From IMG/VR virus record IMGVR_UViG_3300039106_000244, positions 32,001-96,000 of that record: 64,000 nucleotides of DNA, one strand, 5' to 3'. Made by a program: the position numbers and the translations under genes. Shown here piece by piece: positions 27,401-61,442 of the stretch. The notes beneath the pieces are model-generated. The model was not told where the DNA came from. It saw nothing but the letters and a program-made list of their open reading frames with translations, and made no database searches. Position 1 is the first letter of the stretch; the number at the start of each line of letters is the position of its first letter. The DNA comes from a virus.

Positions 27401-30400
27401 ATGGTTGCCCTTGTACTGCATTAGTTTCTGCATCATCATCAATCCAAATCTTTTCACCTATGTGCCAGCCGTGCGGTGGTACATATAGACGTGCAGTTTC
27501 CATGTAATCAAATCGTAAACTGTGTAAGTTAAATAACATACCATTACCATCAATAGTAGTTAATTGTGCTGTATCTCCAGAATATTTAACTAATATATTT
27601 GTAAGATCGAGTACTTCCTCAACTTGATAGAAGCCATCAAATGCTGTATTAAAATTGCGAGTCATGAACACATCGCCTACAAGTAATCCGTGTAGTTTAT
27701 TTGTAGTAAATGTTATATAACCATCAAGTGAATTAGATACTAAAATAATATTATTGTCAGTTTCTGTTATTCTATAAACATTCCAATTTTGAGTGAAATC
27801 TTTGGCGCACCAAATAGTATAACCGGTGCCCATTGCATTTAATCTATCATCTAAATTTACAAAATTAGCAAGATCAAATATAGTAGTCGATACATCATTT
27901 ATATTTACATAACCAGCAGTTAAAATATCATTACTATAATCACTATGTGCATCTCTGTTTAATGCAATCGTGCCATTATACTGTTCAGTTGATTTATATA
28001 ATTGTGACTTATTAAATATAGTCACACCATTTCCACTAGTATCGGTTACAAATGAAGCTGTTGCAGGATTAACACTAAATGCTTTTTCATCTAATGCAAG
28101 TTCTACATATGGATTTATATTTAATGCACCATACTCACCTGTCCGTATTGCCCACTCTTCGTAAAAATTAATTGAGTTACCGGTATTATTAAATTCTGCA
28201 TTAATTAATTGATTAACTGCATTAGCAGAACCTTTTTGTTTAATGAATCCTTTATATAATTCAATCTGAGTAGTATCACTTAATCCAAGGTCTGCTAAGT
28301 ATTGACGTGGTTTAAATCCAATTAAACCATGACTATATCTGATTTGATCCGAATCATTAAAGGTTGTGTGCGAATTATAATATAATTGAGATTTAGCCGC
28401 AATAGTAGCAAAATTTGGCATTAATCCTTTTTTAATCTCACTTGCTGCAATTTGTTTCCAGTATGCAAACGCAAACTCAATAGTTGCTGATATGTTTTGT
28501 AATGCAACATAAAATTGATTTTTATATTGTACTAAATCACCTTTTAAATAATCCTTGCCACCTTGCCACACATCTATAGCACCAGAATTATACATAAAGC
28601 CCGGTGCATTTAAGCTGCCATCCCAGTCTGCAGTTTTTTGTCCAATTAATTTTAATCTAAATTGTCTATTGCCAAGTTCGGGTTTATATATTACATCGTT
28701 GAATACAGTAGTATTATCAAATATCAACACATGTTCATATTGTACTAGATTTAATTCAATGTATCCTATAACCGCATCATTTGTTAATGTTATTTTAAAT
28801 GAAGTAGGACTACGTAATACATTATAATTTGTAGTTTTAACTAAAGTAAAATTCTGATCTAACACTCTCGAACCATGTTGATTATCTGTAATTGCATCTG
28901 TAATTGCACCTACTGTAACTACATTCAATACATTAGCAACCGGTGATAATACCAAGATGCTGCCTGCAGCCCAACCTTGTTGTGCCCAAAATATGAATTC
29001 TTTAATTGACAATTTCCAGTTACGTGTTTCGCCTAGTTGTTCATCAGTGTCGTTAAATGTAAACCCTTGTGCCATTAAATGTCGTTCGTAACTAATTAAG
29101 AAATCGGCTATTTGTTGTTGACTATTAAACTCGTATCCATATGGAACTGTTAATTTTAAGTTCTGATAATCTTTAAACACAGTTACAGAATTATTTAATA
29201 CATTAATTTTATATGCATTTGAGTTAATTACACTTGGAATAATAGTAAAGTACGGGTTAGATAAATTATATCCACGTACACTATATCCATTTGTAGTTTT
29301 TTCAATGATCACGCCACTGTATGCTATTTTTTCCACAGGAGTTGATTTATATAAATGTACATTATAATTTTCGTTTGGAATAATAATACTATCATTTGTA
29401 CTTGTTGGGGAACTTTGTTCTGCCAATACCTGTAGATATTTTTGATCACTAAATCCTGCCATTTTATATGCAAGATTAATTTCGTAATTTTTTAGTAATG
29501 GAGTAATAATAGTAGATGGATCAATGCCTTGATTTACTAAGAAATCTGCAATCCAGTTTATATAACCTGCTGTTCTTACTACTGTGCCAGATGATGTATC
29601 ACCATTAAATGTTAATGATGTTTGTTTAATATGATCATTGGTATCAGTTAGATATTGTCCTATATTCTTATTCATTGAATAGCGTGAAACATCTATCAAT
29701 AAGCCAAAGTATCTAGCAGGCTTTGCCAATGCAAGTGCTTGTTGCATAGCAAATGGGAAATCACTGCTATTACGCCATGCTGTTTCAACTGGACCTTCGT
29801 GTCCTACTGCCCATGATGTTGCGGCTCTAATAGAATTAAATGATGCTGTCATAATCGATGCTGGATTCTTTAAGAATCCGTGATCGTCAACTGGGATAGC
29901 AGTTGACAGCCCGGGACGAATAAAGTTAGGTGCTATACCAGCATTTTCGCCTCTTCTGATTAATCCTGCTTCTAAATCATCCCATAATAATTTATTACCG
30001 CCGGTGTATGGTGCAGGACCGTACTCTTCTTCCCACCAAGCTGGTTTTATCGCAAACCCTAACATTTCCCATGGTGTCTGATGTGGGCGAATTGTATCAT
30101 AATAATATTGATAACATGCTCGCCAACTACCCGGCAATGCTTCTCCACTAATTCTATCAACAAAGCGACTATAGTTCCATGTAAATGGATCATTACTTTC
30201 AAAAGTATCATTTACTGTGAAATCAATTTTGTTATTACCTATCCAATTTAAAAAACTCTTAGATAATAATTGATTAACTTCTGTTAATGAATAATCATCA
30301 TTTCTAAATTTTCCAGATTTAACAGAATAAATGTCTTGGTAGCTACCATTATCAAGTAATTTAATATTATTGTATATACGTTTTTCTAATTCTAATACAA

Positions 30401-33400
30401 AATCATCTCTGTAATCACCAAATGCCGGTGTGATACTACCATCGTGACCGCGTATAACATTAATAGTAGTGCGATAAGTATCATCTAAAAAGATTTCTGG
30501 TAGAAATTTAGGATATAGACCTAATTTAGTAGGTGTCTCCGGAACATAACATCCATTGGTATCGGCATATTCTACTATTTTAATAATATCATCAACTTCT
30601 AATGTAACAGTGTTAGCAATTGTTATTGCCGGGCGGTCTGTATCAAAGGTGTAATCTCTACCTAGCATTAATTGTATATCATTTAAATATACAAGTATCG
30701 CCTTGTTACTTAATGCATACGCATCAAATACTGTAGTAATTTCATACGAACGTACCAATGGGTCAAATACAGTATACCCAGTACCATTAACAATATTTTT
30801 TAATGTACCATAGGGTATCATATCACTATAAAACCAAGGGAATGTTTTATTTTTAATCTTGTTAATTTCTGTTAATATTAAATCTACACTTGAAGCAGGA
30901 TCAGTTGGCTGTATGCCAGATAACGTTGCACTTAGTTCTAAGAATTTATTTTTAAATCGTGCATATTCTTGTTGTGCATATCGTGTTGCATCAATGAAAT
31001 TTGTAGTATCGTTTAACAAGAATAATATCGCATTAGATACTGGGGCACTATGTTGTAATATATTACCACCCTGTGATTTAATCTCAATATCTCTGAGATT
31101 GCTACTTCCGAATATATCTCCTACTAATTCAGTACTACGTTGACTTAATTCAACTAAATGATTTCTAAGTTGACCAAGGGTCAACGATGTAAGATTAATA
31201 TTTTGTGCATTTAAATCTAAATTTTGAGGAACTTGATATTGTCCTATTTTACTTATTTCATCACTAAAAACTAAAATATCAATCTTATCGCCAATTACAG
31301 GAGCAACAGATAATGTTATTGCATTGTTTATAATCGACCAATTTGATTGTTGTACAAATATGTTATTTTTATAAACCCTAATATGCGGAACTATATCTGA
31401 TGGTAATACCGTAACATCAATTTTAAATGGACTATTAGTTCCATCATAGTTATAGGTAATAAGTTGTTCCTGATGCAATGGTTCATTTACTGTTGCCCAG
31501 TTATTTTTTGGAATAACTGTATTTCTATCTACTATTTGTTGTAAAAAACCAGTGGTAATATGTTTGTTATATTGAGTTTGCTCAACAATATAACTAAACA
31601 TATCTGTATCAAAATAATTAGTAAATTCAATATTACCTTGAGTTTGAAATGTTGTATATTTTAATGGAAATGCCAATACTGTATCAATTAACGTACTTGT
31701 GCTAGTTCTATTATATCCAAATAATTTTGTACCCAAGAATGTACTAGATGAATATAGTGATAAACTTGTTCCATTTGCGTCGTATACATCAAATAACGGA
31801 TCTTGTTGTAAACCGGTTTTCTGTTGGCTTTCAATCCATATATCACCATTATACCACCACTGAGTTCCTTTATGAATTCCTGAGGTTACTACTACAGTAT
31901 CGTATATTTCGTTAGTGGCATCGTTAGCCGGATTTAAATTTATGTATATAGGACCGGTTAATAATCCATTGGTATCAATTTGAATTTGTACCAAATTAAT
32001 TACATAGATTTTATTGCGGACAACAGGATCAATATCAGATGCAAATATAATTCGCATGCCGTCATATAATGTAACCCCAGCAATAACAGTTAATTCTTGA
32101 CCGTGTAATTCATTAAATGCATCTCGTGTAGTTGTATCTAAAATACTAATCGCTTGTTTTCCAATTCTACCAAAATTGAATAATTGTAAATCTTCTTCAA
32201 ATTGTATGATCGGACGTTGCGCACGTAAAGTCTGATTATAAATTGGTTGAACACTATTGTATGTCGCAGTGAGACTAATTATCTCACTATGAAACCAACG
32301 ATTACTACGTGACCATGCATTTAAATCTTTGCTTGCTCGATTAATGGTAATATAATCTGCATTAGCAGCATTACCTGGTAGTCCGTTGGGGTAATTTAAT
32401 GCTATTTCATCATTGTATAGTTCAGGAGTAACCAATGCTGTTACATCGATTAATCGAATGCCCGCTGATGTTCCTACTCCTTCTACATAATATTCTTTAT
32501 TCCGATATGCAATAGGTGTAACATCAGTACTAAAATTTATTTTTAGCCCACTAGTAAACGATATACCGTTAGGACTAGTATACGTTGATTTTCTTAAAAT
32601 GTCAACTTCTACGTCGATATCCCACCCGGTTATGTCAACTAGTTTAATTGCAGTATACATCGATGGGTCGGTTCCATCTTGAATATATAATGTATCCTGG
32701 ATACTTGATATAACTGGCACAACATGCAAGAAAGTATCATAATCTTTAAAGAATTCTTTATTAGCATTTACAAGTCCTGATCTAATATATACTTTTTCGT
32801 CAAGTAATATATCTTGTATGTGGACTAAACGAATTAATGGGTTTGCCGCTGTAGCATCAACAAATTGTATGCGCCATACTCCAAATCGATCAGCATCTGG
32901 AATAATATCTCCGGCATTATAGCCAGGAATAGTTAAGTTAGTTACAGGATCGATAACCGCTGGAATTGTCCATGCAGCTTCGCCATAATTAGTTAATAAT
33001 TCTTGATTAACAAAAATCATAGTTTGACCATCAAGTTGGCCAGTGAGTCCCGCATATTGTGGATATGTTTCAATAAATTGACTTAGATATTGATTTTGTA
33101 TAGTGTCATAGGCTATAGGAAGTGCATAATCAACTGACGCTACTACATTCATTGATACATATCTATTTTGTGCAGTTGTTTGCGGAACATTAAATGTAAT
33201 TGTACCGACGTCTAACCCATTATTAACAACACCGAGTACCTCTCGGGTACTAACTGTCGGAGTTGCATTTACTTTCCCATCAATGCCCAGTTCGGTTTGT
33301 ATCCAAAATCCTATGCCAGGTTGATTAACTTCAAATGTATACTGGCCTCCACGTGCAAGTATAATTGTATCTTTTATTGTTCCGTTTGCGCTAATGTTGT

Positions 33401-33896
33401 AACGAACAATATTTGTATTACGAGTCACTGTAAATGCAGTTTCTAATTCAACTCCACTTGTATTAACATTAACTGGATCTGGCCCATTTTCTAACCAATA
33501 ATACTGACTGAAATTAACAAATTTATCAAATGAAATTTGTGGATCGAAACTATAGTATTCCCCATCGAATAATTTTTTATGATTTGGAGTTAATCCACTA
33601 TAATATTCAAGTTTATTTAATAAATCAACATAACTAGCAAAGAATGTAATTTCCTTCTGATCATTACGAACTACAATGCTCGGCTCAAGTTGATACTTTT
33701 GTCTTTCGGCAGAGTTCTCAATTATATAACTATCTTTGCTTTTATAAGTTGGCGCAAATGTTCTTCCGATATATCCATATATGTTTCTTAAATTTGGCTC
33801 TGTTACCAATTGGTCCATTGTTGCCGATAAAAACTTATTGTTAGTATCAGTTTGGAATATGATAGGAAGTAAATTTGAAGTCTTTTTTGTCGCCAT
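21447..33896 (-). CDS. Giant (4149 aa) baseplate wedge/adhesin-like virion protein
   Basis: Follows the gp6-like gene; VKPYSTKIRE wedge-like motif; FG-GAP-like repeats; two W-x5-Y-xx-GD-xV (CBM5/12-like) motifs; GSGY repeats. Confidence 0.7.
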   Translation of the reverse strand: MATKKTSNLLPIIFQTDTNNKFLSATMDQLVTEPNLRNIYGYIGRTFAPTYKSKDSYIIENSAERQKYQLEPSIVVRNDQKEITFFASYVDLLNKLEYYSGLTPNHKKLFDGEYYSFDPQISFDKFVNFSQYYWLENGPDPVNVNTSGVELETAFTVTRNTNIVRYNISANGTIKDTIILARGGQYTFEVNQPGIGFWIQTELGIDGKVNATPTVSTREVLGVVNNGLDVGTITFNVPQTTAQNRYVSMNVVASVDYALPIAYDTIQNQYLSQFIETYPQYAGLTGQLDGQTMIFVNQELLTNYGEAAWTIPAVIDPVTNLTIPGYNAGDIIPDADRFGVWRIQFVDATAANPLIRLVHIQDILLDEKVYIRSGLVNANKEFFKDYDTFLHVVPVISSIQDTLYIQDGTDPSMYTAIKLVDITGWDIDVEVDILRKSTYTSPNGISFTSGLKINFSTDVTPIAYRNKEYYVEGVGTSAGIRLIDVTALVTPELYNDEIALNYPNGLPGNAANADYITINRASKDLNAWSRSNRWFHSEIISLTATYNSVQPIYNQTLRAQRPIIQFEEDLQLFNFGRIGKQAISILDTTTRDAFNELHGQELTVIAGVTLYDGMRIIFASDIDPVVRNKIYVINLVQIQIDTNGLLTGPIYINLNPANDATNEIYDTVVVTSGIHKGTQWWYNGDIWIESQQKTGLQQDPLFDVYDANGTSLSLYSSSTFLGTKLFGYNRTSTSTLIDTVLAFPLKYTTFQTQGNIEFTNYFDTDMFSYIVEQTQYNKHITTGFLQQIVDRNTVIPKNNWATVNEPLHQEQLITYNYDGTNSPFKIDVTVLPSDIVPHIRVYKNNIFVQQSNWSIINNAITLSVAPVIGDKIDILVFSDEISKIGQYQVPQNLDLNAQNINLTSLTLGQLRNHLVELSQRSTELVGDIFGSSNLRDIEIKSQGGNILQHSAPVSNAILFLLNDTTNFIDATRYAQQEYARFKNKFLELSATLSGIQPTDPASSVDLILTEINKIKNKTFPWFYSDMIPYGTLKNIVNGTGYTVFDPLVRSYEITTVFDAYALSNKAILVYLNDIQLMLGRDYTFDTDRPAITIANTVTLEVDDIIKIVEYADTNGCYVPETPTKLGLYPKFLPEIFLDDTYRTTINVIRGHDGSITPAFGDYRDDFVLELEKRIYNNIKLLDNGSYQDIYSVKSGKFRNDDYSLTEVNQLLSKSFLNWIGNNKIDFTVNDTFESNDPFTWNYSRFVDRISGEALPGSWRACYQYYYDTIRPHQTPWEMLGFAIKPAWWEEEYGPAPYTGGNKLLWDDLEAGLIRRGENAGIAPNFIRPGLSTAIPVDDHGFLKNPASIMTASFNSIRAATSWAVGHEGPVETAWRNSSDFPFAMQQALALAKPARYFGLLIDVSRYSMNKNIGQYLTDTNDHIKQTSLTFNGDTSSGTVVRTAGYINWIADFLVNQGIDPSTIITPLLKNYEINLAYKMAGFSDQKYLQVLAEQSSPTSTNDSIIIPNENYNVHLYKSTPVEKIAYSGVIIEKTTNGYSVRGYNLSNPYFTIIPSVINSNAYKINVLNNSVTVFKDYQNLKLTVPYGYEFNSQQQIADFLISYERHLMAQGFTFNDTDEQLGETRNWKLSIKEFIFWAQQGWAAGSILVLSPVANVLNVVTVGAITDAITDNQHGSRVLDQNFTLVKTTNYNVLRSPTSFKITLTNDAVIGYIELNLVQYEHVLIFDNTTVFNDVIYKPELGNRQFRLKLIGQKTADWDGSLNAPGFMYNSGAIDVWQGGKDYLKGDLVQYKNQFYVALQNISATIEFAFAYWKQIAASEIKKGLMPNFATIAAKSQLYYNSHTTFNDSDQIRYSHGLIGFKPRQYLADLGLSDTTQIELYKGFIKQKGSANAVNQLINAEFNNTGNSINFYEEWAIRTGEYGALNINPYVELALDEKAFSVNPATASFVTDTSGNGVTIFNKSQLYKSTEQYNGTIALNRDAHSDYSNDILTAGYVNINDVSTTIFDLANFVNLDDRLNAMGTGYTIWCAKDFTQNWNVYRITETDNNIILVSNSLDGYITFTTNKLHGLLVGDVFMTRNFNTAFDGFYQVEEVLDLTNILVKYSGDTAQLTTIDGNGMLFNLHSLRFDYMETARLYVPPHGWHIGEKIWIDDDAETNAVQGQPFGTQPSGTWKVYEKTHPWSMGQRLVKNTSEYSANIGFGRSLKMIDNAEQTIFTGTTLYANLSVSTNTGAVNIFEKNASNVYVETTSIIPDGANTFTFGSHIDTAVDSFINDGVDTRETLAISAPTSSGLGGAANVGLMYIYKETASTENWVRGQVIAGNVSATGGKFGTGFAFDELGHWLYVSAPYEATPKVYVYGLQRFVTEATGNVTTSGSVSTITVPFTRDTIVSSTDANSVLVTSATRTYIPRIDYTISGQTITFISGNVNGTFTISQGPYYTLVETISGPAGSEFGYCIDASLNGAQLGVGAPGDGVIGSTGVTLAQAGAVYVYDRVIEAFNSTNGTVYTTQEIIADVHKVTVDDIEIFNYTKTGTNEITLFVPLGVGKVVKIETNKFTLLERLIGIDTLDGSLSAIQAGARFGSALTICSNNCAFYIGAPYYNAGTIYNTGAVWKFHNRGTLYGTNTGYIHNPTFTPGDTIRLDNFQITVTGTSLDSLVQDINDANLLGITAVNEAGYLRLNSDKTVAKNRLRILSASGTVYEDAGMAIFAFMQIIVNPYHSNNEYFGTKVILARNAYMLVISSDRGTTNHYTTFDDGTATTFDNISTAFFDSVNASGSVYTYELYDDPRNAVEHPGRYAFCQQLDPTDLNTGDGFGAAIDVIGGHIVVSAPSDDTTITDGGSIYVFSNPTGKRGWSLLRYQQPTVDIESISRLYLYSNLSNTILKTLEFIDPAKGKISGLAEQEISYKTGYDPAVYNRGTNNAVNLNDNIFWNSNQVGQVWWNLSLLSYIDYEQDTLTYRSINWGKLFPGSIVEVLEWVESAYLPSMYVANGGEGQPKYEDDSAYVELIFVDPITNIIGIKYFYWVKNKTTVDPNNEFRHIPILAVQDIIENPKNQGVPYAAIIQNNALIVYNIVDYLSSQNTILHIDYNTIKNTNIIHSEYELIQKGNADSAISPKIINKLIDSLAGIDILGATVPDPALSTADKFGLGVRPRQTMFIDRFTAWSNLIDYANSVLITTPIARNCDLTNLTASEPQPNIKLGEYDLKIATELELELIDITTLDPGYKILVEQDTTRNNLWVVYELSINNTWEVVKIQSYKTDLYWDYVDWYAPGYGVETQLEYVVDTLTDALKLPVKVGDDVLVRVSRGGDHGWNLLVLNSQNHFDVVGIQNGTVQLKTSNGTLINNTTPTIEVRYIITALRDDIFVGELDSEFNKLFFVVVNYIFNEQKYVDWIFKTSFISVAHTLRTLAQTPNYIKDNQTYYQDYISEVKPYSTKIREYSINYNSTDEYAGNISDFDVPAYYDTDTQIFRSPSGENIIKDEALWQTDTYSQWYANRNYKVESIVVEYSGSGYTAEPIVTIVDGGLAASGATARAIIDFDLGTVIRIDIIAGGSGYYVTPTVLINGSCTTPARAYAMLANNQVRSINTTLKFDRVNYTSSVQEWSANTAYTIGDIVTHTGSLETATRNAYIVTANIVSGSTFIHTTDYTIYNASDFTTANDRITGYYEPGASMPARDLTQLLRGIGYPGVKVQGAGFDQAPGFSGPTPFDEGVFDNIQYDADGLPMLDDYTIDSIIRSDYTDLALGTRAEDINVAGGAYVDTYSSHAPEELVPGIVFDTLDMQVYTKINGNVDVIGYRMFSNMMREESYLRIASAHSTTLASNLAITDTTIVVADASKLTAPFIDTVGLGQIAIPGVIFINGERITYYTRNLLTNTLGQIRRGTQGTGTPALYTAGTLITDGSIDQLVPNVVSNISLSTITPYTVTTTRSYYLSLTGNVSANVGDVITQSVSGASMTVAGIDSVARVLLVIRNNTNSLTYQNNDVALSGNVTVTAGDYITQSSTGANLTVLTSGANVSNISLSYYGITTLTTGKAGGNIAINGSNVAIYPTTITSNVSLSSAIIINGTSTGNVYPLSIVPVGRNDAGNPFVDSNGNVTIAANISLHTTNVWYNLGSGVATDGTGFNGATTAPVTFLKASTATLIAP

Positions 33897-45437: not shown

Positions 45438-46454
45438 ATGGCAAATTTATTTAAAAAAGCAGCGATTCTGACTGACGTGCATTTTGGCTTAAAGTCAAAT
45501 AGTCAAACACATAATGATGATTGTTTAAACTTTGTTAAGTGGTTTATTAGCAAAGCTAAAGAAGAAGGTTGTGATGTTTGCTTTATGTTAGGTGACTGGC
45601 ATAATAATCGAGCGGCAATTAATATCATCACGTTAAACTACAGTCTAACAGCGTTAGAGTTGTTGGGCAAAGCGTTTGAACGTGTTATATTCATTCCGGG
45701 CAATCACGACCTATACTATAGAGATAAGCGTGATATACAGTCAGCTGAGTGGGCGCGACATATTCCTAACATCGAAATTATCAATGACTTCTATCAAGAG
45801 GGTGATGTAAGCATAGTCCCTTGGCTAGTAGGTGACGATCATAAGAAGATACAAAAGATTAATGCAAAATATATGTTTGGGCACTTTGAGTTACCGGGCT
45901 ACTATATGAACGCCATGGTGCAGATGCCAGAACACGGTGAAATCAGACGTGAAGACTTTGGACACATTGATCATGTCTATAGCGGACACTTCCATAAACG
46001 TCAAACTGGTAAGAACATTACCTACGTTGGTAATGCATTCCCACACAACTATGCAGACGCAGGTGATGACGAACGTGGCATGATGATATTAGAGTGGGGC
46101 AATGAGCCAACGTTTCATGCCTGGCCTGACCAACCAAAGTATCGTGTGTATACATTAAGTGGTATACTGCAAAACCCGGATACTTTATTGCAAAAGGGCA
46201 TGCACTGTCGAGTAAACATTGATGTGGATATTTCATACGAAGAAGCAACCTTTATTAAAGAAACATTTGTAGGTACATACAATTTGCGTGAGCTTACACT
46301 AATACCAGTTAAGCATACCGATGTTGGTACAGATATTATGCTAGGTAATATTCAATTCGAAAGTATCGATACTATCGTAACAAGTCAACTAACAGCTATT
46401 AATAGTGATCATTATAATCCAGTATTGTTATTAGATATCTATAGGAATCTATGA
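45438..46454 (+). CDS. gp47: Recombination endonuclease subunit (Mre11/SbcD, T4 gp47)
   Basis: DVHFG, LGDWH, GNHD, GHF, SGHFH metallophosphoesterase motifs. Confidence 0.92.
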   Translation: MANLFKKAAILTDVHFGLKSNSQTHNDDCLNFVKWFISKAKEEGCDVCFMLGDWHNNRAAINIITLNYSLTALELLGKAFERVIFIPGNHDLYYRDKRDIQSAEWARHIPNIEIINDFYQEGDVSIVPWLVGDDHKKIQKINAKYMFGHFELPGYYMNAMVQMPEHGEIRREDFGHIDHVYSGHFHKRQTGKNITYVGNAFPHNYADAGDDERGMMILEWGNEPTFHAWPDQPKYRVYTLSGILQNPDTLLQKGMHCRVNIDVDISYEEATFIKETFVGTYNLRELTLIPVKHTDVGTDIMLGNIQFESIDTIVTSQLTAINSDHYNPVLLLDIYRNL

Positions 46455-47161
46455 AGATATATGCAAATGGTTGTAGTTTTACCTACGGAGATGATTTAAT
46501 CTCACCATTGCAATCTGCATGGCCATCTTTATTAGCCGATAAATTAAGTGGAATAATTACAAACGATGCAGTTAGCGGTGGTACAAATAGTAGAACTATG
46601 TATCGTACAATTAAAAATATCCAATATGATTACGATTTATACTTAATTGCATGGACTACATATTCAAGATTTACATTTTATAAAAGCGATAATAATTTTG
46701 AAACAAATTTTAATCCACAGTTAATACATCGTTTATATTCAAATAAACATTTTTACACAACATGGGGTAATACATTATATAAACATTGGTATAATGAATT
46801 ATACGCCTTTAAATTATGGTTGCAACAAATTATACAGCTACAATCATTATTAAGTAATAAAAATTATATCATGATTAATACTATGAATAATAATATCGCG
46901 AGATGGACTGTTGATAAAGAATTATTCAATGAATCAGTTAAGTCATTGATTAATTTTGATATTATGAAAGATGAACAAATACTTGCTGAATTTGAAGAAA
47001 TACAATATTATATAAGTATCATAGATTTTTCTAAGTTTTACAAATGGAACGGATTCTATATAACCCAATTATGTTCACAATTTAAGTGCGGTCCCACTGG
47101 ACACATATTAGAAGATGGACATGCTCATTTAGCGGAATTAATATACAAACATGTCATTTAA
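46451..47161 (+). CDS. SGNH-like protein inserted between gp47 and gp46
   Basis: YANGCSFTYG, AVSGGTN, AWT..SR, GHILEDGH; very AT-rich. Confidence 0.65.
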   Translation: MKIYANGCSFTYGDDLISPLQSAWPSLLADKLSGIITNDAVSGGTNSRTMYRTIKNIQYDYDLYLIAWTTYSRFTFYKSDNNFETNFNPQLIHRLYSNKHFYTTWGNTLYKHWYNELYAFKLWLQQIIQLQSLLSNKNYIMINTMNNNIARWTVDKELFNESVKSLINFDIMKDEQILAEFEEIQYYISIIDFSKFYKWNGFYITQLCSQFKCGPTGHILEDGHAHLAELIYKHVI

Positions 47162-48923
47162 AATAAAAAATCTCACGGTGAAAAATTTCATGAGCGTTGG
47201 TAATGCCACGCAGGCAGTGGACTTTGATCGCAACGATCTCACGTTAGTGTTAGGCGTTAACGTTGACTTAGGCGGAGATGATAGTGGTGCACGTAACGGT
47301 ACTGGTAAAACAACTATCATTAATGCACTAAGCTATAGTTTGTTTGGGCAGGCGTTAACTAATATTAAACGTGATAACTTAATTAATAAAACCAATGGTA
47401 AAAACATGTTAGTTACTGTTGAGTTCGAGCATAACGGGCAAGACTATAAGATTGAACGTGGGCGTAAGCCAAACGTAATGAAGTTTTACGTAGGTGACGA
47501 AGAAAAAGAAATTACAGATGAGAGTCAAGGCGATAGTAGAGAAACACAAGCTGAGATTGAACGCTTGTTAAGCATGTCGCACAATATGTTCAAACACATT
47601 GTTGCGCTTAATACATATACCGAGCCATTCTTAAGTCTTAAATCTAATGATCAGCGTGAGATTATCGAGCAGTTACTTGGTATTACTGTGTTAAGCGAAA
47701 AAGCAGAAAAACTTAAAGAGCTAGGTCGTGCTACTAAAGAAGCAATTCAGCAAGAAGAATACAAAATTAAGGCGATTGCAGACGCAAATGAGCGTATTAA
47801 AGAGCAAATTGAGAGCTTAAAACGTCGACAAACTATGTGGACTACTAAGCACACAGATGACACAGTAAAACTACAAAATGCATTAACAGAGTTGCTTAAA
47901 ATTGATATCGAACAAGAGCTCGTGGCACACAAAGGGCTTACTGCATACAATCAAAAGCGTAAAGATATTGCCGATTTAACTACAGCATTAACTCGCGCAC
48001 GTGCAGATCAAGAACGTGAACGCAAACGTGCAGACAAGTTAACCGCAGAAATAGCTACGCTAGAAAGCCATCAATGTCATACGTGCGGACAAGCATTCCA
48101 CGATGATAAGCACGAAGCTGTCTTAACTGCTAAGAAAGTTGAACTCAGCGATGCTACTATATCATTCGAAGCACACGGTGCTACTATTGCAGATTTAGAG
48201 TTTGCACTCACTGAGTTAGGTGTATTAGGTGCGCAACCAAAAGTCTTTTACGATAAAGAAGCAGATGCGTTTCATCATAAGGGTTCTATTACAAGTTTAG
48301 AAACACAGTTAGCAACTAAAACCGCAGAAGTCGACCCGTATGCCGAACAGATTGAAGAGATGACGCATACTGCTATGGCGGACACTGATTATACTACAAT
48401 GAATGAGCTTGTTAAGTTAAAGGAACATCAAGACTTCTTGTTAAAACTATTAACTAACAAAGATAGCTTTATCCGTAAACGTATTATTGATCAAAACTTG
48501 TCGCATTTGAATGCACGATTAAGTCAATACTTAGATCGTATCGGCTTACCGCACACAGTAACGTTCTTAAATGATTTAAGCGTTGAAATTACAGAACTAG
48601 GGCGTGAGTTAGACTTTGATAACTTGTCACGTGGAGAACGTAATCGCTTGATACTAAGTTTAAGTTGGGCGTTCCGTGATGTATGGGAGAGTTTATACAA
48701 TCCAATCAACTTATTGTTTATCGACGAACTTATCGACAGTGGTATGGACAGTAGCGGAGTTGAAAGTTCATTGGGCATACTTAAAAAGATGTCACGTGAG
48801 CATGAAAAAAGTATTTGGCTTGTATCGCACAAAGACGAACTTGCAGGGCGAGTTAACAATATTATGACAGTAACAAAAGAGAACGGGTTTACCTCATATA
48901 GTACAGACGTAGAAGTAATTTAA
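47151..48923 (+). CDS. gp46: Recombination ATPase subunit (Rad50/SbcC, T4 gp46)
   Basis: KNFMSVGN, Walker A NGTGKTT, CHTC zinc hook, LSRGE signature, LFIDE Walker B, VSH. Confidence 0.92.
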   Translation: MSFKIKNLTVKNFMSVGNATQAVDFDRNDLTLVLGVNVDLGGDDSGARNGTGKTTIINALSYSLFGQALTNIKRDNLINKTNGKNMLVTVEFEHNGQDYKIERGRKPNVMKFYVGDEEKEITDESQGDSRETQAEIERLLSMSHNMFKHIVALNTYTEPFLSLKSNDQREIIEQLLGITVLSEKAEKLKELGRATKEAIQQEEYKIKAIADANERIKEQIESLKRRQTMWTTKHTDDTVKLQNALTELLKIDIEQELVAHKGLTAYNQKRKDIADLTTALTRARADQERERKRADKLTAEIATLESHQCHTCGQAFHDDKHEAVLTAKKVELSDATISFEAHGATIADLEFALTELGVLGAQPKVFYDKEADAFHHKGSITSLETQLATKTAEVDPYAEQIEEMTHTAMADTDYTTMNELVKLKEHQDFLLKLLTNKDSFIRKRIIDQNLSHLNARLSQYLDRIGLPHTVTFLNDLSVEITELGRELDFDNLSRGERNRLILSLSWAFRDVWESLYNPINLLFIDELIDSGMDSSGVESSLGILKKMSREHEKSIWLVSHKDELAGRVNNIMTVTKENGFTSYSTDVEVI

Positions 48924-48978
48924 TTTACCACCCACCGTACGGTGGTTAAATACACATAACAACAAGGAGAAGTAAAAC

Positions 48979-49164
48979 ATGTCAATTCATGAAGAAATTT
49001 TGGCGGCAGTAGAATTATACGTTTCAGAATCAGAAAAATTTGAAGTTAAGGGTGTTAAGGCTGCAGCGGCACGTGCTCGTGGTGCATTAGGCGATTTAGG
49101 TAAGTTAACTAAAGCTCGTCGTGCAGAAATTCAAGACAAGAAAAATAGTTTAGCTGCAAAATAA
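48979..49164 (+). CDS. Small histone H1-like (Hc1-type) DNA-binding protein
   Basis: EKFEVKGVKAAAARARGAL..L.K..R.EIQ pattern; strong SD AAGGAG. Confidence 0.65.
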   Translation: MSIHEEILAAVELYVSESEKFEVKGVKAAAARARGALGDLGKLTKARRAEIQDKKNSLAAK

Positions 49165-49171
49165 ATAACGT

Positions 49172-49612
49172 ATGACATACGAATTTCCCTGGATCTATAA
49201 TGGTACACTTTTTGATTCAGGGGATATCGGTGAATATTACGGCTTCATTTATAGAATAACAAATCTCACAAACGGACACGATTACGTGGGCCGCAAATAT
49301 TTTAAAACTATTAAAAAAAGACCACCATTAAAAGGCAAGAAGAACAAACGTCTAGAAACAATCGAAACTGATTGGAAAGATTATTGGGGTTCATCAAGTC
49401 GGTTAGTAGCAGATATATTAGAACTAGGCAAGGAACAGTTTAAACGCGAAATTATACATCTATGTAGCAGTCGCGGAGAAACTAATTATATGGAAGCGCA
49501 TTATCAATTTAAGGAAGAAGTACTGTTAAGAGAAGATAACTATAATGGTATTATACAACTTAAACTAGGTAAAAACTCCGTTAAAGATGTAAAGATTAAT
49601 AAAACTAGTTGA
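49172..49612 (+). CDS. GIY-YIG family nuclease (catalytic domain only)
   Basis: GFIYRITNLTNGHDYVGRK, WKDYWGSS, FKREI, E and YN motifs. Confidence 0.8.
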   Translation: MTYEFPWIYNGTLFDSGDIGEYYGFIYRITNLTNGHDYVGRKYFKTIKKRPPLKGKKNKRLETIETDWKDYWGSSSRLVADILELGKEQFKREIIHLCSSRGETNYMEAHYQFKEEVLLREDNYNGIIQLKLGKNSVKDVKINKTS

Positions 49613-49637
49613 CCAATAACATTAAACGTATTACAAT
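49609..49637 (+). promoter_or_regulatory. Sigma70 promoter TTGACC-N17-TACAAT
   Basis: Near-consensus elements with 17-nt spacing and no downstream ORF on this strand. Confidence 0.65.
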
Positions 49638-49643
49638 AAACAC

Positions 49644-50208
49644 ATATCTCTCAGACACCAAGTCATTCTCATAGAAACAAATTCCAACTCCGTAGTAAAG
49701 TAGTAAATGTTTTAACAGCCCTATTGCAGATTAAGTTCTGTATTCAGAGGAGATCTCGGTCGCATAATGGCCCCGAGTGGAACGTGTAGACTAGACTACA
49801 CACTGAATGGCGAATTGGTATTGTGCTATAAAAAGCGAATCAACAATATAAAAATTAGGTGTAAAAACCAAATGATTTGGGCACTGTGAAAAAGATACAA
49901 CCCATATGATGACATAGTTTGGCTAACTACGGATTATGCATCAACCGTCGTAATAAAGCAAGAGTAGGGAGTACAGGGCGACCGCTTCCGTGTAAATGAA
50001 TATAATCTCTTTTAGTTAGTGTGATGAAGCACTCGGATGAAGTGATCTGTTACATTTTACCTCGGATAGGTAAAGTGTGACTATAATCTGGATGAAGCAG
50101 TTCTAAAGTCAAAAGCGAAACAGTAATATTAAAGTAATTTAAATTAATTAGATTAGAAAAAAAAGCATTGAGCGACAGCGAAATGCAGATGTCGTTAGAC
50201 ATCTTTTA
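49644..50208 (+). ncRNA. Candidate large structured non-coding RNA (~560 nt), family unassigned
   Basis: ORF-free 625-nt gap with its own promoter, many stems with G-U pairs, and a terminal hairpin followed by Ts. Confidence 0.55.
50187..50207 (+). terminator. Putative terminator hairpin
   Basis: AGATGTC-GTTA-GACATCT followed by TTT. Confidence 0.5.
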
Positions 50209-50237
50209 AGGATAAGATACAATATAGTCTTTTGCTC

Positions 50238-51038
50238 TTATAATGACTTTGATAACTTAGCTAATTTCTTACGTAATTTAGATTCTTGTATAGCTTTTAT
50301 ATGTGCTGCTGACTTTGGTTTACGCATCTTTTGTTTTGTTTCTTCTGACTTTGGTTTACGCATCTTTTGTTTTGTTTCTTCTGACATAGCACCTTTACTA
50401 ACTCCTTTATTTGCTAAACTTAATTTAGCCTTATGTTCAGTAGATTTTGCAGTTGTTCCTTTACCACTACGATTAGCTGATATTTTAGTTGCAATAACTA
50501 ATTTTTCTTCTAAAGTTTTTTCCTTCCTATTAAGTTGTGCAATACTCATACGTTCTTTCTGTTCCGCTGTTCTTTTTTTGCCTATACAAGATGTACTACG
50601 TTTATCTATAGTTTCTTGCGAATGTACTCTTCCTTTTCCTGCTGTAGATATTTTAGCTTTCTGTTCCGCTGACATAGTGCGACCTGTAAGTCTAGCAGAA
50701 TGTATTTTACTAAATTCTTCTTTAAGATTGGCAAATACACGACTGGTAATTTTAGTAATATATCGTTCTTGTTGATGAGTGCGTGATACACGTCGCATAC
50801 CATTTAATGCATATATCATTTTTTCACGATTGCTACCTGTTGTTATTTTAATCAACAACCAGTGACATATAAAATGCTCGCGCCCTGACAAATGAACAAG
50901 ATTATTCTTGCTATCTTGTCCTCCGATTGATTTTGGTATGATGTGATGTTTTTCACTGTAAGAAAGCGGGGTTGATCTCAATTGCGCATTACTGACAATT
51001 GCATCATACCACCGCTTGTATTTGTTTTCGATAAACAT
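50238..51038 (-). mobile_element. HNH homing endonuclease with NUMOD3-like repeats
   Basis: EKHHIIPKSIGG..NLVHLSGREHFICHWLL; repeated SxE.K.K.S basic motifs; TAAATA box and SD upstream. Confidence 0.85.
50309..50385. repeat. Perfect 36-bp tandem duplication encoding SEETKQKMRKPK x2
   Basis: ctgactttggtttacgcatcttttgttttgtttctt repeated twice, plus ctgac. Confidence 0.9.
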
Positions 51039-51096: not shown

Positions 51097-51327
51097 TTAG
51101 AAAAACGGGAGGCCACTTTTTTTGGTCGTTTCCATGTTCTCTTTAATTATTTTTGATACTAATTCTCGTTCTTGCTGACTTAACATCATTGCATCTTCGT
51201 AACTTATTCCTCCTCGCATATACCAGGAAATTCGCAACGCATCATCTTTATAGGCCCTTATCTCTTTTTCGTAGCCTGCTAATAGCTCTACGATTGCATC
51301 GTTATCTAGTGCTAAGAGCCTACTGCG
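51097..51327 (-). CDS. -1 frame extension of the gp26-like gene (gp51/tail chaperone T-like; RSRLLALDNDAIVELLAGYEKEIRAYKDDALRISWYMRGGISYEDAMMLSQQERELVSKIIKENMETTKKSGLPFF)
   Basis: Hand translation; 76 open codons starting at slippery T TTT TTC; no early ATG of its own. Confidence 0.7.
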   Translation of the reverse strand, partial: RSRLLALDNDAIVELLAGYEKEIRAYKDDALRISWYMRGGISYEDAMMLSQQERELVSKIIKENMETTKKSGLPFF

Positions 51328-52175
51328 AAAAAACTTGCAAAATCAAATTCAACAGCTACGCTAAATTCTGCTTCACAACTATGACAACTAACTTCGATTG
51401 GTTTAATACCGCCTTGCTTGCCTAATTCTGTTAATTTAGCTTTAACTTTTTTAATTACTTTAGAATCACAATTACTATAAAATTCATTAATAAAAGCATC
51501 ATCGGATACAATAGTACCATCGGGTAATTCTATATAATCAGTGCTACCGGTTAACAATGCTACATTTAAATCAATGATTTTAGTTAATTGTTGATCAAAT
51601 ATTTTTTTAGCTTCGTCTGGATTATCATTTAACTGACTTAATGTTTTCATTATTTGCTGTTCTTCAAAAGCAATCATATTTGATTTATTAACATTGAAAT
51701 ATGCTTGTGGTTTAAGTTTGATATTTAAATTATCAACTGAGACTTTTTGTGTATAAACAGGAGATTCGATATTGCTTAATACAACTCCTAAGTCGATTGC
51801 ATAATCACTTGTTTCACTGCACTTTGGACAAGTTGCACCAAAGTCCATTTGATTGCCATAACTTGCGATACGTATTGCAATAATTGCAGAATCAACATCA
51901 ATACTAGGCATCATCCATGCATTCTTAATACTTGGGCAACAACTTTCAATTACATTAACAACACCTTGCCCGTTGAGCAGTGCATCGGGAGTTTTAAGAG
52001 TAATTTCATCTTTAGTACTCATTGGCAACACAGCAATTTCATTGTTTAACGGTAAGTCAATTGAACCTTCAGGCCAATGCGTACCACCACTTGGCAGTTT
52101 TAAATATAACGCTGGTTGACGAAAGTGCTTTGCTAACGGATTGTGCGGTGTAATTGGTTGAGTTTGATTCACCAT
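51312..52175 (-). CDS. Baseplate hub assembly protein/tail chaperone (T4 gp26-like)
   Basis: NPL..FRQP..LKLPSGG, MSTKDEI..LLNG, IRIASYG, CPKC and CHSC. Confidence 0.7.
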   Translation of the reverse strand: MVNQTQPITPHNPLAKHFRQPALYLKLPSGGTHWPEGSIDLPLNNEIAVLPMSTKDEITLKTPDALLNGQGVVNVIESCCPSIKNAWMMPSIDVDSAIIAIRIASYGNQMDFGATCPKCSETSDYAIDLGVVLSNIESPVYTQKVSVDNLNIKLKPQAYFNVNKSNMIAFEEQQIMKTLSQLNDNPDEAKKIFDQQLTKIIDLNVALLTGSTDYIELPDGTIVSDDAFINEFYSNCDSKVIKKVKAKLTELGKQGGIKPIEVSCHSCEAEFSVAVEFDFASFFAVGS

Positions 52176-61368: not shown

Positions 61369-61442
61369 TGGTGCGTTAGGTGGGATTCAAACCCACTATC
61401 TTCGGCTTTAGAGACCGTTGCTAGTCGTATAGCTTCTAACGC
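61369..61442 (-). tRNA. Atypical tRNA with CUA anticodon (amber suppressor-type)
   Basis: GCGTTAG-AA-GCTA TACGAC TAGC-A-ACGGT CTCTAAA GCCGA-AGATA-GTGGG TTTGAAT CCCAC-CTAACGC-A-CCA: complete cloverleaf with encoded CCA. Confidence 0.85.

What the first reader, a model, noticed from the sequence alone, without database searches (positions are those of the whole stretch)
49609..50208. Unassigned ~560-nt structured RNA with its own promoter and terminator, between two nucleases
Seen: the only large ORF-free gap in a densely packed window, preceded by TTGACC-N17-TACAAT. It contains a multibranch element (ATTCAG 49742/CTGAAT 49803 enclosing CTCGG/CCGAG and GTGTAG/CTACAC) and a TGATG..CATCA stem whose loop sequence CTAACTA (49923-29) is complementary to TAGTTAG (50013-19), a possible pseudoknot. 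There is also a GG-GCGA-CC GNRA hairpin, a 14-bp stem with two G-U pairs (50049-50081) and a terminal hairpin. It has no tmRNA or RNase P hallmarks. Inference: a novel large phage ncRNA, possibly partnering the adjacent catalytic-domain-only GIY-YIG protein. A replication origin transcript is an alternative.
Basis: partly seen in the sequence, partly recalled or inferred. Interest (0 to 1): 0.75.

Follow-up and report, generated by a model that had tools for sequence, protein, structure and literature searches.

The report
Large structured RNA in jumbo phages
The gap holds a real, roughly 500-base folded RNA that is conserved in many uncultured freshwater jumbo phages, partly overlaps an old orphan RNA motif, and carries two identical sequence segments that always change together and that nothing yet explains.

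Summary
The 625-nt ORF-free gap (49613-50237) holds a real structured RNA on the + strand, about 49700-50207. It is conserved in 64 of 80 loci found through the neighbouring SbcC gene, and in 77 of 78 further IMG/VR loci found through a 19-nt core pattern. Compensatory changes support about a dozen helices and two pseudoknots: 94-96% of cells paired, against 29-49% when partners are slid. The "GNRA hairpin" is really one strand of a second pseudoknot. The "own promoter" is not supported: its -10 lies in a relic of the GIY-YIG gene's 3' coding end, and in close relatives the GIY-YIG stop codon abuts the RNA. The HNH gene is a lineage-specific insertion. The window's RNA matches no Rfam family. 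In a sister clade, however, the homologous 5' domain is Rfam RF01718 (Polynucleobacter-1, an orphan motif from 2010) in 9 of 9 loci scanned. The conserved core of about 320 nt is undescribed. Its oddest feature is two segments, CUC+X and UCU+X, whose 7-nt X is identical in 100 of 102 distinct RNAs but differs between RNAs (15 variants). Function is unknown. Synteny with a small nuclease gene is strong but not universal.

The parts
49172..49612 (+). GIY-YIG-domain-only protein gene (146 aa), the conserved upstream neighbour
   Evidence: PF19835 SegE_GIY-YIG, 3.9e-36. phrog_447. tblastn hit in 69 of 80 SbcC-ascertained loci. Adjacent in 60 of 77 RNA-ascertained loci.
49609..49637 (+). Sigma-70-like match TTGACC-N17-TACAAT; not conserved and probably not the RNA's promoter
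   Evidence: 10 of 12 match, but 13 sites against 10.3 +/- 3.0 expected. The -10 lies in the coding relic. Absent where the ORF abuts the RNA.
49629..49685 (+). Relic of the 3' coding end of a different GIY-YIG allele
   Evidence: Aligns to profile columns 1-57, which in clades B and C lie inside the GIY-YIG ORF. The frame-1 translation reads YYNKHISLRH against the relatives' YYNGQISVRVHGSH.
49700..50207 (+). The structured RNA as a whole: variable 5' domain plus conserved core plus terminator. The 5' end is approximate.
   Evidence: nhmmer hits on the + strand only, in 64 of 80 and 77 of 78 loci. In L003 a 232-aa ORF is inserted just upstream of the position equal to about 49700. Covariation.
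49718..49811 (+). 5' domain. Closing helix GCC 49718-20 / GGC 49809-11; hairpin 49726-30 / 49737-41; three-way junction 49742-47 / 49803-08 with arms 49755-59 / 49773-77 and 49784-89 / 49796-801.
   Evidence: 94.1% paired against 29-43% slid; the junction helices have 4 of 6, 4 of 5 and 3 of 6 pairs changed on both sides. It occupies the position of RF01718 in clade C but does not itself match RF01718.
49878..49904 (+). Hairpin 49878-81 / 49901-04, whose loop holds the conserved CUGUGAAAAAGAUACAA
   Evidence: Co-varies in clade B, 3 of 5 pairs. The loop sequence is also conserved in the divergent L103, L094 and L156.
49907..49943 (+). Stem S1 (49907-11 / 49939-43 and 49914-18 / 49933-37); its loop supplies the 5' strand of pseudoknot 1
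   Evidence: Clade C: 10 of 12 pairs changed on both sides. Clade B: 100% paired.
49923..50019 (+). Pseudoknot 1: 49923-29 pairs with 50013-19
   Evidence: 95.2% paired with 5 of 7 pairs compensatory in clade C. 92.5% paired with 3 of 8 in clade B. A complementary run of 7 or more in 79 of 112 cognate pairs, against 19% of non-cognate pairs.
49947..49982 (+).
   Evidence: 100% paired in clades B and C. Nine distinct complementary combinations across clades; 4.3% and 3.9% of non-cognate pairs score 4 of 4.
49960..50011 (+). Helix P-B (49960-64 / 50007-11) enclosing P-C (49967-71 / 49985-89) and the variable hairpin P-D (49991-94 / 50001-04). P-C carries the most conserved stretch, GGUACMGG..ACCGCYUC.
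   Evidence: P-B has 4 of 5 pairs compensatory in clade C. The core pattern finds at least 120 IMG/VR contigs.
50032..50042 (+). Twin segment, copy 1: CUC + X (X = GGAUGAA in the window)
   Evidence: Identity covariation with copy 2: 50 of 51, 51 of 51 and 51 of 51 at the three variable positions. X is identical in 100 of 102 distinct RNAs.
50055..50075 (+). Hairpin P-F (50055-62 / 50068-75), extendable in the window to 50049-81
   Evidence: 97.5% paired over 51 sequences; 4 of 8 pairs changed on both sides.
50087..50097 (+). Twin segment, copy 2: UCU + X
50165..50186 (+). Hairpin P-G: outer stem 50165-69 / 50182-86, conserved UGAGC..GCGAA with possible tandem G-A pairs, and inner GC / GC closing a 4-nt loop
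   Evidence: The outer stem pairs 5 of 5 in 72% of 50 cognate pairs, against 9.9% of non-cognate pairs. Inner pairs are 94.1% paired.
50187..50207 (+). Terminal hairpin 50187-93 / 50198-204 followed by a T run; probable intrinsic terminator, possibly bidirectional
   Evidence: 7 of 8 pairs changed on both sides over 51 sequences. Not called by the consensus scan. In relatives it abuts the end of the convergent 46-aa ORF.
50238..51038 (-). HNH + NUMOD3 homing-endonuclease-like gene; a lineage-specific insertion, not part of the RNA
   Evidence: Pfam and PHROG hits. An HNH hit appears in only 3 of 77 RNA-ascertained loci. L003 carries three NUMOD3 ORFs around the RNA.

Best explanation
Shown:
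- The gap encodes a structured RNA of about 500 nt, found in a large clade of uncultured freshwater jumbo phages related to PA5oct and Atu_ph07.
- It has a clade-variable 5' domain. In one sister clade that domain is the Rfam motif Polynucleobacter-1.
- It has a conserved 3' core of about 320 nt built around two pseudoknots.
- It ends with a conserved hairpin that has a GA-rich internal loop, followed by a terminator hairpin.

Inferred:
- The RNA is made as the 3' end of the rightward SbcD-SbcC-(Hc1)-GIY-YIG transcript and is ended by its own terminator. It may later be trimmed to a stable RNA.
- It acts in trans as a folded scaffold. The two sequence-identical segments (CUC+X and UCU+X, 55 nt apart) would engage two copies or two repeats of one partner, either a nucleic acid or a dimeric protein.

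What that partner is, and what the RNA does for the phage, is not known.
For: - Conservation is on the + strand only and there is no shared ORF.
- Compensatory changes appear in three independently aligned clades and in the all-clade alignment: 93.7%, 95.8%, 95.1% and 94.1% of cells paired, against 29-49% with slid partners. In every case 0 of 500 shuffles reached the observed covariation score.
- Both pseudoknots co-vary.
- The + strand folds better than shuffles (z = -1.93); the - strand does not.
- RF01718 matches the homologous 5' domain in 9 of 9 clade-C loci scanned.
- The window's sequence alone aligns across that domain (L036, query positions 17-612, E = 6.3e-08).
- Co-transcription: the ORF stop abuts the RNA in close relatives, and RNA-library contigs from 4 studies bridge the ORF-RNA junction.
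- Twin segments: X1 equals X2 in 100 of 102 distinct RNAs, with 15 variants, against 13% for non-cognate pairs. They also change together in very divergent members.
Against: - No direct evidence of a discrete stable transcript, its ends or its strand. The laid runs were assembled contigs, and DNA carry-over cannot be excluded.
- No partner for X was found. There is no complementary site within -900 to +300 nt. X is not enriched in the 117-kb genome or in three large relatives.
- Thermodynamic folding does not show the twin segments to be especially unpaired: 0.45 against 0.41 overall. RNAalifold instead pairs them with each other in a 6-bp helix that shows no compensatory change (helix 7).
- Weinberg et al. 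2010 listed Polynucleobacter-1 as probably cis-regulatory (table row only).
Confidence: 0.55

Rival explanations
1. The RNA is the partner of the small nuclease encoded beside it, acting as a guide, an activating scaffold or an inhibitor. The nuclease is GIY-YIG in most phages and PDDEXK in a few. The twin X segments would set or sense the target specificity.
For: - The GIY-YIG gene lies directly upstream on the same strand in 60 of 77 RNA-ascertained loci, and within 1 kb in 2 more.
- In L103 a PDDEXK_15 nuclease gene takes its place. In L092 a PDDEXK_15 gene lies just downstream of the RNA.
- The 146-aa protein has only the catalytic domain and no DNA-binding domain.
- Its ORF overlaps or abuts the RNA, as in TnpB-type omega-RNA loci (that comparison is recalled, not tested).
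Against: - The protein family is found in 608 phage records. In Melnitz, phiN3 and P-SSM4 it has no large gap after it.
- L094 and L156 carry the RNA core in other contexts.
- No protein column tracks the variable X positions: the top normalised mutual information is 0.27-0.37, against a 95% null of 0.26-0.31, with no correction for phylogeny.
- X varies at only a few positions, unlike true guides.
- The region is a hot spot for mobile nuclease genes, so adjacency may be incidental.
Confidence: 0.15
2. It is a cis-acting 3' untranslated region. It would protect the early recombination-nuclease mRNA from 3' decay, insulate it from the convergent late baseplate genes, or control translation of the nuclease.
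For: - It lies at the end of a transcription unit, convergent with late genes.
- It ends in a conserved terminator.
- It is apparently co-transcribed with the ORF.
- Polynucleobacter-1 was scored as probably cis-regulatory.
Against: - About 500 nt with two co-varying pseudoknots and near-invariant core sequences over deep divergence is far more than known 3' stabilisers need (inference).
- The core also occurs after unrelated genes (L094, L156).
- In L003 a 232-aa ORF separates it from the GIY-YIG gene.
Confidence: 0.15
3. It is a ribozyme or self-processing RNA. The two identical CUC/UCU+X sites would be cut or joined by the same active site, which would explain why they must match.
For: - A complex double-pseudoknot core with near-invariant single-stranded stretches.
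- Two sites required to be identical, each preceded by a helix, then (A)GUGAC, then about 7 nt.
Against: - No internal sequence complementary to X was found.
- No match to any Rfam ribozyme family.
- In one metatranscriptome a 1550-nt contig runs through both sites (X3).
Confidence: 0.1
4. The conserved element works as DNA: a replication origin with iteron-like direct repeats, or a target of the homing endonucleases clustered around it. The RNA folds would be secondary.
For: - Direct repeats that evolve in concert are typical of iterons (recalled).
- The two copies are 55 bp apart.
- Homing-endonuclease-like genes cluster here.
Against: - Dozens of compensatory, strand-specific pair changes including G-U pairs.
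- Folding asymmetry between the strands.
- Composition in the gap is unremarkable: GC 0.27-0.41 in 200-nt windows.
- Only two repeat copies.
Confidence: 0.04
5. It is a decayed protein-coding gene.
For: The first 60-70 nt of the gap are indeed a coding relic.
Against: From about 49700 onward, the stop-to-stop ORFs of 60 aa or more that overlap the element differ in frame and strand between relatives or are absent. Variation follows base pairing, not codons.
Confidence: 0.01

Closest known systems
Polynucleobacter-1 RNA motif (Rfam RF01718; Weinberg et al. 2010, PMC2864571)
   Same: In the sister clade C it is the 5' domain of the same RNA, at the same place, directly after the GIY-YIG gene. 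It scores 81-117 bits against a 37-bit threshold in 9 of 9 loci. Both come from freshwater sources and both have unknown function.
   Different: RF01718 is 141 nt, whereas the full element is about 500 nt and its conserved core lies outside the model. The window's own 5' domain does not match RF01718 even at E up to 10. Nor do 4 clade-A, 8 clade-B and 3 other loci. The published table calls it probably cis-regulatory. I saw only that table row; the supplements are closed.
Large ornate RNAs of unknown function (GOLLD, ROOL, OLE, raiA)
   Same: Several hundred nucleotides, multi-domain, with pseudoknots. GOLLD and ROOL are phage-associated and come from lake metagenomes. They are now known to form RNA-only homo-oligomers (PMC12286853; abstract seen in the search listing). 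Copy 2 of the twin segment, AUCURGAU, is self-complementary, so self-association is conceivable (inference).
   Different: No Rfam match to any of them. It is smaller than GOLLD. It lies at the 3' end of a nuclease gene rather than beside tRNAs (that context is recalled). No multimer evidence exists for it.
Omega RNAs of TnpB/IscB (including HEARO) and other RNA-guided nucleases
   Same: A structured RNA that overlaps or abuts the end of a small nuclease gene. The neighbouring nuclease differs between loci: GIY-YIG or PDDEXK.
   Different: There is no TnpB, IscB or Cas protein. There is no transposon end. The 'variable' part is only 7-8 nt, is duplicated, and varies at few positions. There is no HEARO match.
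Type III toxin-antitoxin RNAs (ToxI-like)
   Same: Pseudoknotted RNA with repeated units kept identical, encoded next to a nuclease (recalled).
   Different: There are no tandem repeats of 30-40 nt; only short A-rich repeats were found. The RNA lies downstream of the nuclease gene, not upstream. The neighbouring proteins belong to DNase-type families.

Membership tests
Rfam RF01718 Polynucleobacter-1 | Match to the covariance model at or above the 37-bit gathering score | tested here: not met
   Window 49400-50400 has no RF01718 hit even at E up to 10, and none in the whole window at gathering. It is met in 9 of 9 clade-C relatives at the homologous position.
Rfam RF01718 Polynucleobacter-1 | Homology of the window's 5' domain to RF01718-bearing sequences | tested here: inconclusive
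   nhmmer with the window's sequence alone aligns L036 over query positions 17-612 (E = 6.3e-08) and L025 over 16-492. Short shared blocks (GGUCGC, GGAAC) are visible. The helices differ, however.
tmRNA | tRNA-like domain and tag reading frame | tested here: not met
   ARAGORN finds no gene in 49000-50600. No Rfam match.
Group I intron | Match to the intron model, and flanking exons of an interrupted gene | tested here: not met
   No Rfam hit. The upstream ORF ends with its own stop codon, and downstream lies a convergent gene.
GOLLD / ROOL / HEARO / OLE / raiA | Match to the Rfam models | tested here: not met
   No hits in the window or in six diverse relatives at E up to 0.5.
Intrinsic terminator | GC-rich hairpin followed by a U run | tested here: inconclusive
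   A 7-bp hairpin plus TTTT is present and co-varies. The consensus scan called none. In many relatives the run after the stem is TTAAAA, not a clean T run.
Sigma-70 promoter of its own | -35 and -10 hexamers conserved upstream of the RNA in relatives | tested here: not met
   Present in the window. It lies in a coding relic. There is no room for it in L012-L016.
RNA-guided nuclease system (OMEGA-like) | Obligate pairing of the RNA with one nuclease family, and a variable guide matching targets | tested here: inconclusive
   Adjacent in 60 of 77 loci, with exceptions. No target was found for X. No protein-RNA covariation beyond the null.
Type III TA antitoxin RNA | Tandem repeats of about 30-45 nt upstream of the toxin gene | tested here: not met
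   Tandem Repeats Finder and the repeat finder show no such array in the gap.

The most novel reading that the evidence does not exclude
The RNA and the small catalytic-domain-only nuclease next to it (GIY-YIG, swapped for PDDEXK in some phages) form a new kind of RNA-directed nuclease system in jumbo phages. The duplicated 7-8-nt X segments would be the programmable specificity element, reading two repeats or both strands of a target. That requirement would explain why both copies must always change together.
Probability: 0.08. Interest if true: 0.95.

Novelty: new variant of a known kind. Interest (0 to 1): 0.7.

Why it matters
Structured RNAs of several hundred nucleotides with pseudoknots are rare, and almost every one studied has turned out to be a ribozyme, a ribonucleoprotein core or an RNA-only assembly.

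- **A full covariation-supported fold.** This gives a starting point for SHAPE or cryo-EM.
- **An unusual constraint.** The two segments are kept identical through at least 15 sequence variants. A small set of mutants could test it.
- **A possible functional link.** The RNA sits beside interchangeable small nuclease genes in the recombination module. This raises the unproven possibility of a link to DNA cutting, homing or defence.

Tried and rejected
- **blastn against isolate phages.** A search of 50,697 records found nothing. PA5oct and Atu_ph07 have other genes after SbcC, so no cultured phage carrying the RNA was found.
- **Bacterial genomes.** The 19-nt core pattern gave only chance hits: 0 of 80 fetched loci match the profile. 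A stricter pattern hit 4 MAG contigs. A Polynucleobacter-1-like pattern hit 5 contigs, and none of those tested reached the RF01718 threshold. So I found no host link and no confirmed cellular copy.
- **A complement of X in cis.** None was consistent across 53 sequences.
- **X as a genome-wide motif.** No enrichment.
- **Pairing of copy 1 with copy 2.** It is possible (96.8% paired) but has no compensatory change and does not explain the identity at positions outside it.
- **Unpaired probabilities.** Uninformative.
- **Mutual information between X and the GIY-YIG protein.** No clear signal.
- **PDB sequence search with the GIY-YIG protein.** No hit at E up to 1.
- **One-shot MAFFT alignment of all clades.** It was too misaligned for column counts in the pseudoknot region, so I counted per clade.
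- **Model R1.** Built from 8 clade-A sequences, it found clades A and B but only 4 clade-C members.
- **PK2 regex test.** In one search the pattern picked the wrong CCG in 39 of 112 rows (the CCGT rows), so its '59 of 112' understates the pairing.
- **Metatranscriptome cover outside the bridged parts.** No conclusion drawn.
Full report
**Setting**

- The window is bases 32001-96000 of a 117-kb IMG/VR virus record that CheckV rates 33% complete.
- Its SbcC-like protein (47151-48923) is closest, among isolates, to Pseudomonas phage PA5oct (50% identity), then Atu_ph07 and the Rak2-like jumbo phages.
- The gene order around the finding is as follows:
  - SbcD (45438-46454)
  - a DUF6071 protein
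  - SbcC
  - a 61-aa Hc1-like protein (48979-49164)
  - a 146-aa protein that is only a SegE-type GIY-YIG domain (49172-49612; PF19835, 3.9e-36)
  - the gap, 49613-50237
  - an HNH + NUMOD3 gene on the other strand (50238-51038)
  - a 46-aa ORF (51097-51237, minus strand)
  - a T4-baseplate-family gene (51312-52175, minus strand)
- The 625-nt gap is the largest ORF-free stretch in the window.

**The observation**

- The hexamers TTGACC-N17-TACAAT are present at 49609-49637. Promoter-like sites are no more common here than in shuffled sequence: 13 against 10.3 +/- 3.0.
- The consensus scan called no terminator.
- The + strand folds somewhat better than shuffles: -130.5 kcal/mol, z = -1.93, with 3 of 100 shuffles as good. 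The - strand does not: z = +0.22.
- Rfam gave only a tRNA elsewhere in the window. In the gap it gave two chance-level snoRNA hits, at E = 2 and E = 6.5.
- ARAGORN found nothing.
- blastn against 50,697 phage records found nothing.

**Conservation**

- I fetched the best 80 IMG/VR loci that encode relatives of the SbcC protein.
- The gap sequence is conserved in 64 of them, always on the same strand and downstream of SbcC. Identity falls to about 70% over 500 nt, and further with a profile.
- Stop-to-stop ORFs of 60 aa or more that overlap the element differ in strand and frame from locus to locus, or are absent.
Of the 78 new loci, 77 match the profile.
- The same pattern in bacterial genomes gave only chance hits: 0 of 80 fetched loci match.
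- The sequences fall into three clades, which I call A (the window's own), B and C, plus a few divergent members.

**Structure**

One alignment of all clades was too misaligned in the pseudoknot region. I therefore counted pairs clade by clade, on MAFFT alignments, with structures that I wrote from the sequences.

| Alignment | Pairs | Cells paired | Slid partners | Pairs changed on both sides | Shuffles reaching the covariation score |
|---|---|---|---|---|---|
| Clade C, 26 sequences | 53 | 93.7% | 38-45% | 28 | 0 of 500 |
| Clade B, 14 sequences | 52 | 95.8% | 36-49% | 15 | 0 of 500 |
| All clades, 51 sequences: P-F, inner P-G, terminator | 18 | 95.1% | 30-43% | 13 | 0 of 500 |
| Clade A 5' domain, 11 sequences | 25 | 94.1% | 29-43% | 11 | 0 of 500 |

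- The shuffle control does not correct for relatedness. The slid controls do keep relatedness, but the structures were derived from these same sequences, which favours them against the slid versions.
- The outer stem of P-G pairs 5 of 5 in 72% of 50 cognate pairs, against 9.9% of non-cognate pairs.
- In window coordinates the fold is:
  - a hairpin, 49878-81 / 49901-04, with a conserved A-rich loop
  - stem S1, whose loop (49923-29) pairs with 50013-19 (pseudoknot 1)
  - helix P-B, enclosing P-C and a variable hairpin
  - pseudoknot 2, between 49947-51 and 49978-82 in the P-C loop
  - hairpin P-F
  - hairpin P-G
  - the terminator hairpin
- Pseudoknot 1 is invariant in clade A. It has 5 of 7 pairs compensatory in clade C and 3 of 8 in clade B. 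Across 112 distinct sequences, a complementary run of 7 or more is found in 79 cognate pairs, against 19% of non-cognate pairs.
- Pseudoknot 2 shows nine different complementary combinations. About 4% of non-cognate pairs score 4 of 4. In one search, 39 of the 112 rows were mis-registered by my pattern, so the raw figure of 59 of 112 understates the pairing.
In relatives its "loop" is ACAA, UCAA or CUGA.

**The ends**

- The stretch 49629-49685 aligns to profile columns that, in clades B and C, lie inside the GIY-YIG ORF.
- Translated, it reads YYNKHISLRH, next to the relatives' C-terminal YYNGQISVRVHGSH. The window's real C-terminus is of another type, NYNGIIQLKLGKNSVKD.
- So the window's subclade keeps a relic of a replaced allele, and the -10 hexamer lies in that relic.
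- In L012-L016 the ORF's stop codon abuts the first helix.
- In the complete 329-kb relative L003, a 232-aa NUMOD3 ORF sits between the relic and the RNA. This places the RNA's 5' edge near window position 49700.
- At the 3' end, most relatives run from the terminator straight into ...CTTAAAAGAATGG, which is the end of the convergent 46-aa ORF (GLPFF*). The window's HNH gene is therefore an insertion.
- Only 3 of 77 RNA-ascertained loci have an HNH hit.
- L003 carries three NUMOD3 ORFs around the RNA. The site is a hot spot for homing-endonuclease-like genes.

**Expression**

- Fourteen runs from 7 studies hold 5-20% of the sampled words. Twelve are on record as RNA, and most are freshwater metatranscriptomes.
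- I laid Logan contigs of four runs from four studies at 85% likeness or more. Contigs of relatives bridge the ORF-RNA junction in all four:
  - X3: 1550 nt at depth 159.5 over 48807-50247, beside contigs of depth 2-39
  - X6: 772 nt over 49241-50020
  - X2: 573 nt over 49506-50036
  - X1: 173 nt over 49532-49700
- Contigs give neither strand nor ends, and DNA can be present in such libraries. This is consistent with co-transcription but does not prove it.

**A known piece**

- Rfam scans of relatives gave RF01718, Polynucleobacter-1, over the full model (1-141) at the position of the 5' domain, directly after the GIY-YIG ORF.
- It was found in 9 of 9 clade-C loci, at 81-117 bits against a 37-bit threshold.
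- It was found in 0 of 4 clade-A, 0 of 8 clade-B and 0 of 3 divergent loci.
- The only paper in the library that names it is Weinberg et al. 2010. I saw one table row there: RNA probable, cis-regulatory probable, Burkholderiales and fresh water/estuary. Its supplements are closed.
- The window's sequence alone aligns across this domain in L036 and L025, but its helices differ and it does not match the model.
- No Rfam family covers the conserved core.
- A 2023 survey of 10,006 candidate structured RNAs in IMG/VR does not mention GIY-YIG or jumbo phages in its main text (find mode only). Its candidate list is in closed supplements and could include this RNA.

**The twin segments**

- After pseudoknot 1 and after P-F come two similar modules: a helix, then (A)GUGAC, then about 7 nt, then CUC+X or UCU+X (50032-42 and 50087-97).
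- In the 51-sequence alignment, the three variable positions of copy 1 share mutual information almost only with the same positions of copy 2, as identities: 50 of 51, 51 of 51 and 51 of 51.
- Over 102 distinct RNAs, the 7-nt X is identical in both copies in 100. Non-cognate pairs are identical in 13%. There are 15 variants.
- Divergent members change both copies together as well: AUGAAGA in L103, ACGAAAU in L156, UGGUAAU in L092.
- This is identity, not complementarity.
- I found no complementary site in cis. X is not enriched in the own genome or in three large relatives. There is no association with the GIY-YIG protein sequence beyond what relatedness would give.
- Copy 2, AUCURGAU, is self-complementary. 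A copy 1-copy 2 helix is possible but shows no compensatory change.
- I cannot explain the constraint. A shared partner, a shared active site, or frequent conversion between the copies are the options I can see.

**Link to the nuclease**

- The GIY-YIG gene lies directly upstream in 60 of 77 RNA-ascertained loci, and within 1 kb in 2 more.
- By my reading of the table, about 9 of the remaining 15 have the RNA at the edge of the locus.
- In L103 a PDDEXK_15 nuclease gene takes its place between SbcC and the RNA. In L092 a PDDEXK_15 gene follows the RNA. L094 and L156 have other neighbours.
- The GIY-YIG family (phrog_447, often mislabelled NAD synthetase) occurs in 608 phage records. In Melnitz, phiN3 and P-SSM4 no large gap follows it.
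- GIY, YVG, Arg, Glu and Asn motifs are visible in the sequence. Assigning them as catalytic residues rests on recall.
- A PDB sequence search found nothing.

**Verdict**

- It is a member of a widespread family of large structured RNAs in jumbo phages. A variable front end of that family was catalogued in 2010 as an orphan motif. The conserved double-pseudoknot core and the twin identical segments are, as far as my searches reach, undescribed.
- The promoter claim and the "two nucleases" framing do not hold.
- Function is unknown. My preferred reading is a trans-acting scaffold released from the 3' end of the nuclease transcript, and I hold it with modest confidence.

Noticed in passing
window 21447-33896 (-): A single ORF of 4149 aa, followed by ORFs of 1127, 698 and 1011 aa on the same strand. 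These are giant structural-type proteins typical of jumbo phages.
   Followed up: no
window 48979-49164 (+): A 61-aa protein matching the chlamydial histone H1-like Hc1 family (PF07432, 4.9e-09), lying between SbcC and the GIY-YIG gene. It was detected in only 3 of the 77 RNA-ascertained loci.
   Followed up: partly
window 50309-50385 (inside the HNH gene, - strand): A perfect 36-nt tandem repeat, 2.1 copies, encoding a repeated ETKQKMRKPKSE stretch in the C-terminal NUMOD3 region of the homing-endonuclease-like protein.
   Followed up: no
window 49629-49685: A relic of the 3' end of a different GIY-YIG allele, left beside the intact gene. It is evidence of allele replacement by recombination at this hot spot.
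   Followed up: yes
L003 8106-11307 (complete 329-kb relative with terminal repeats): Three NUMOD3-bearing ORFs (192, 232 and 248 aa; the last has an HNH domain) surround the GIY-YIG gene and the RNA. One splits them apart by about 730 nt.
   Followed up: partly
L003 about 10240-10300; L031/L028; L049; L055: The variable hairpin P-D carries insertions of 20-65 nt in some relatives. That position evidently tolerates expansion.
   Followed up: no
Phage records H15-H30 (Vibrio phage 2.275.O, Rak2-like E. coli and Salmonella phages): The SbcC match comes in two pieces and covers 86-100% of the query. This suggests an insertion in gp46 of those phages, possibly an intein, an intron or an extra domain.
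   Followed up: no
window 49831-49853 and 50111-50133; 49892-49900 and 50214-50222: Direct repeats within and just after the RNA: AAAAGCGAA... at 83% over 23 nt, and AAGATACAA exact over 9 nt, the second copy lying after the terminator. Their meaning is unknown.
   Followed up: no
window 61372-61442 (-): One tRNA gene (Rfam, 49.7 bits).
   Followed up: no
L323/L324 (Haliscomenobacter MAG), L325 (Nocardioidaceae MAG), L290 (Flavobacteriales MAG): Contigs of 100-183 kb, binned into bacterial MAGs, carry the RNA core pattern. They are probably jumbo-phage contigs that were binned with cells.
   Followed up: partly
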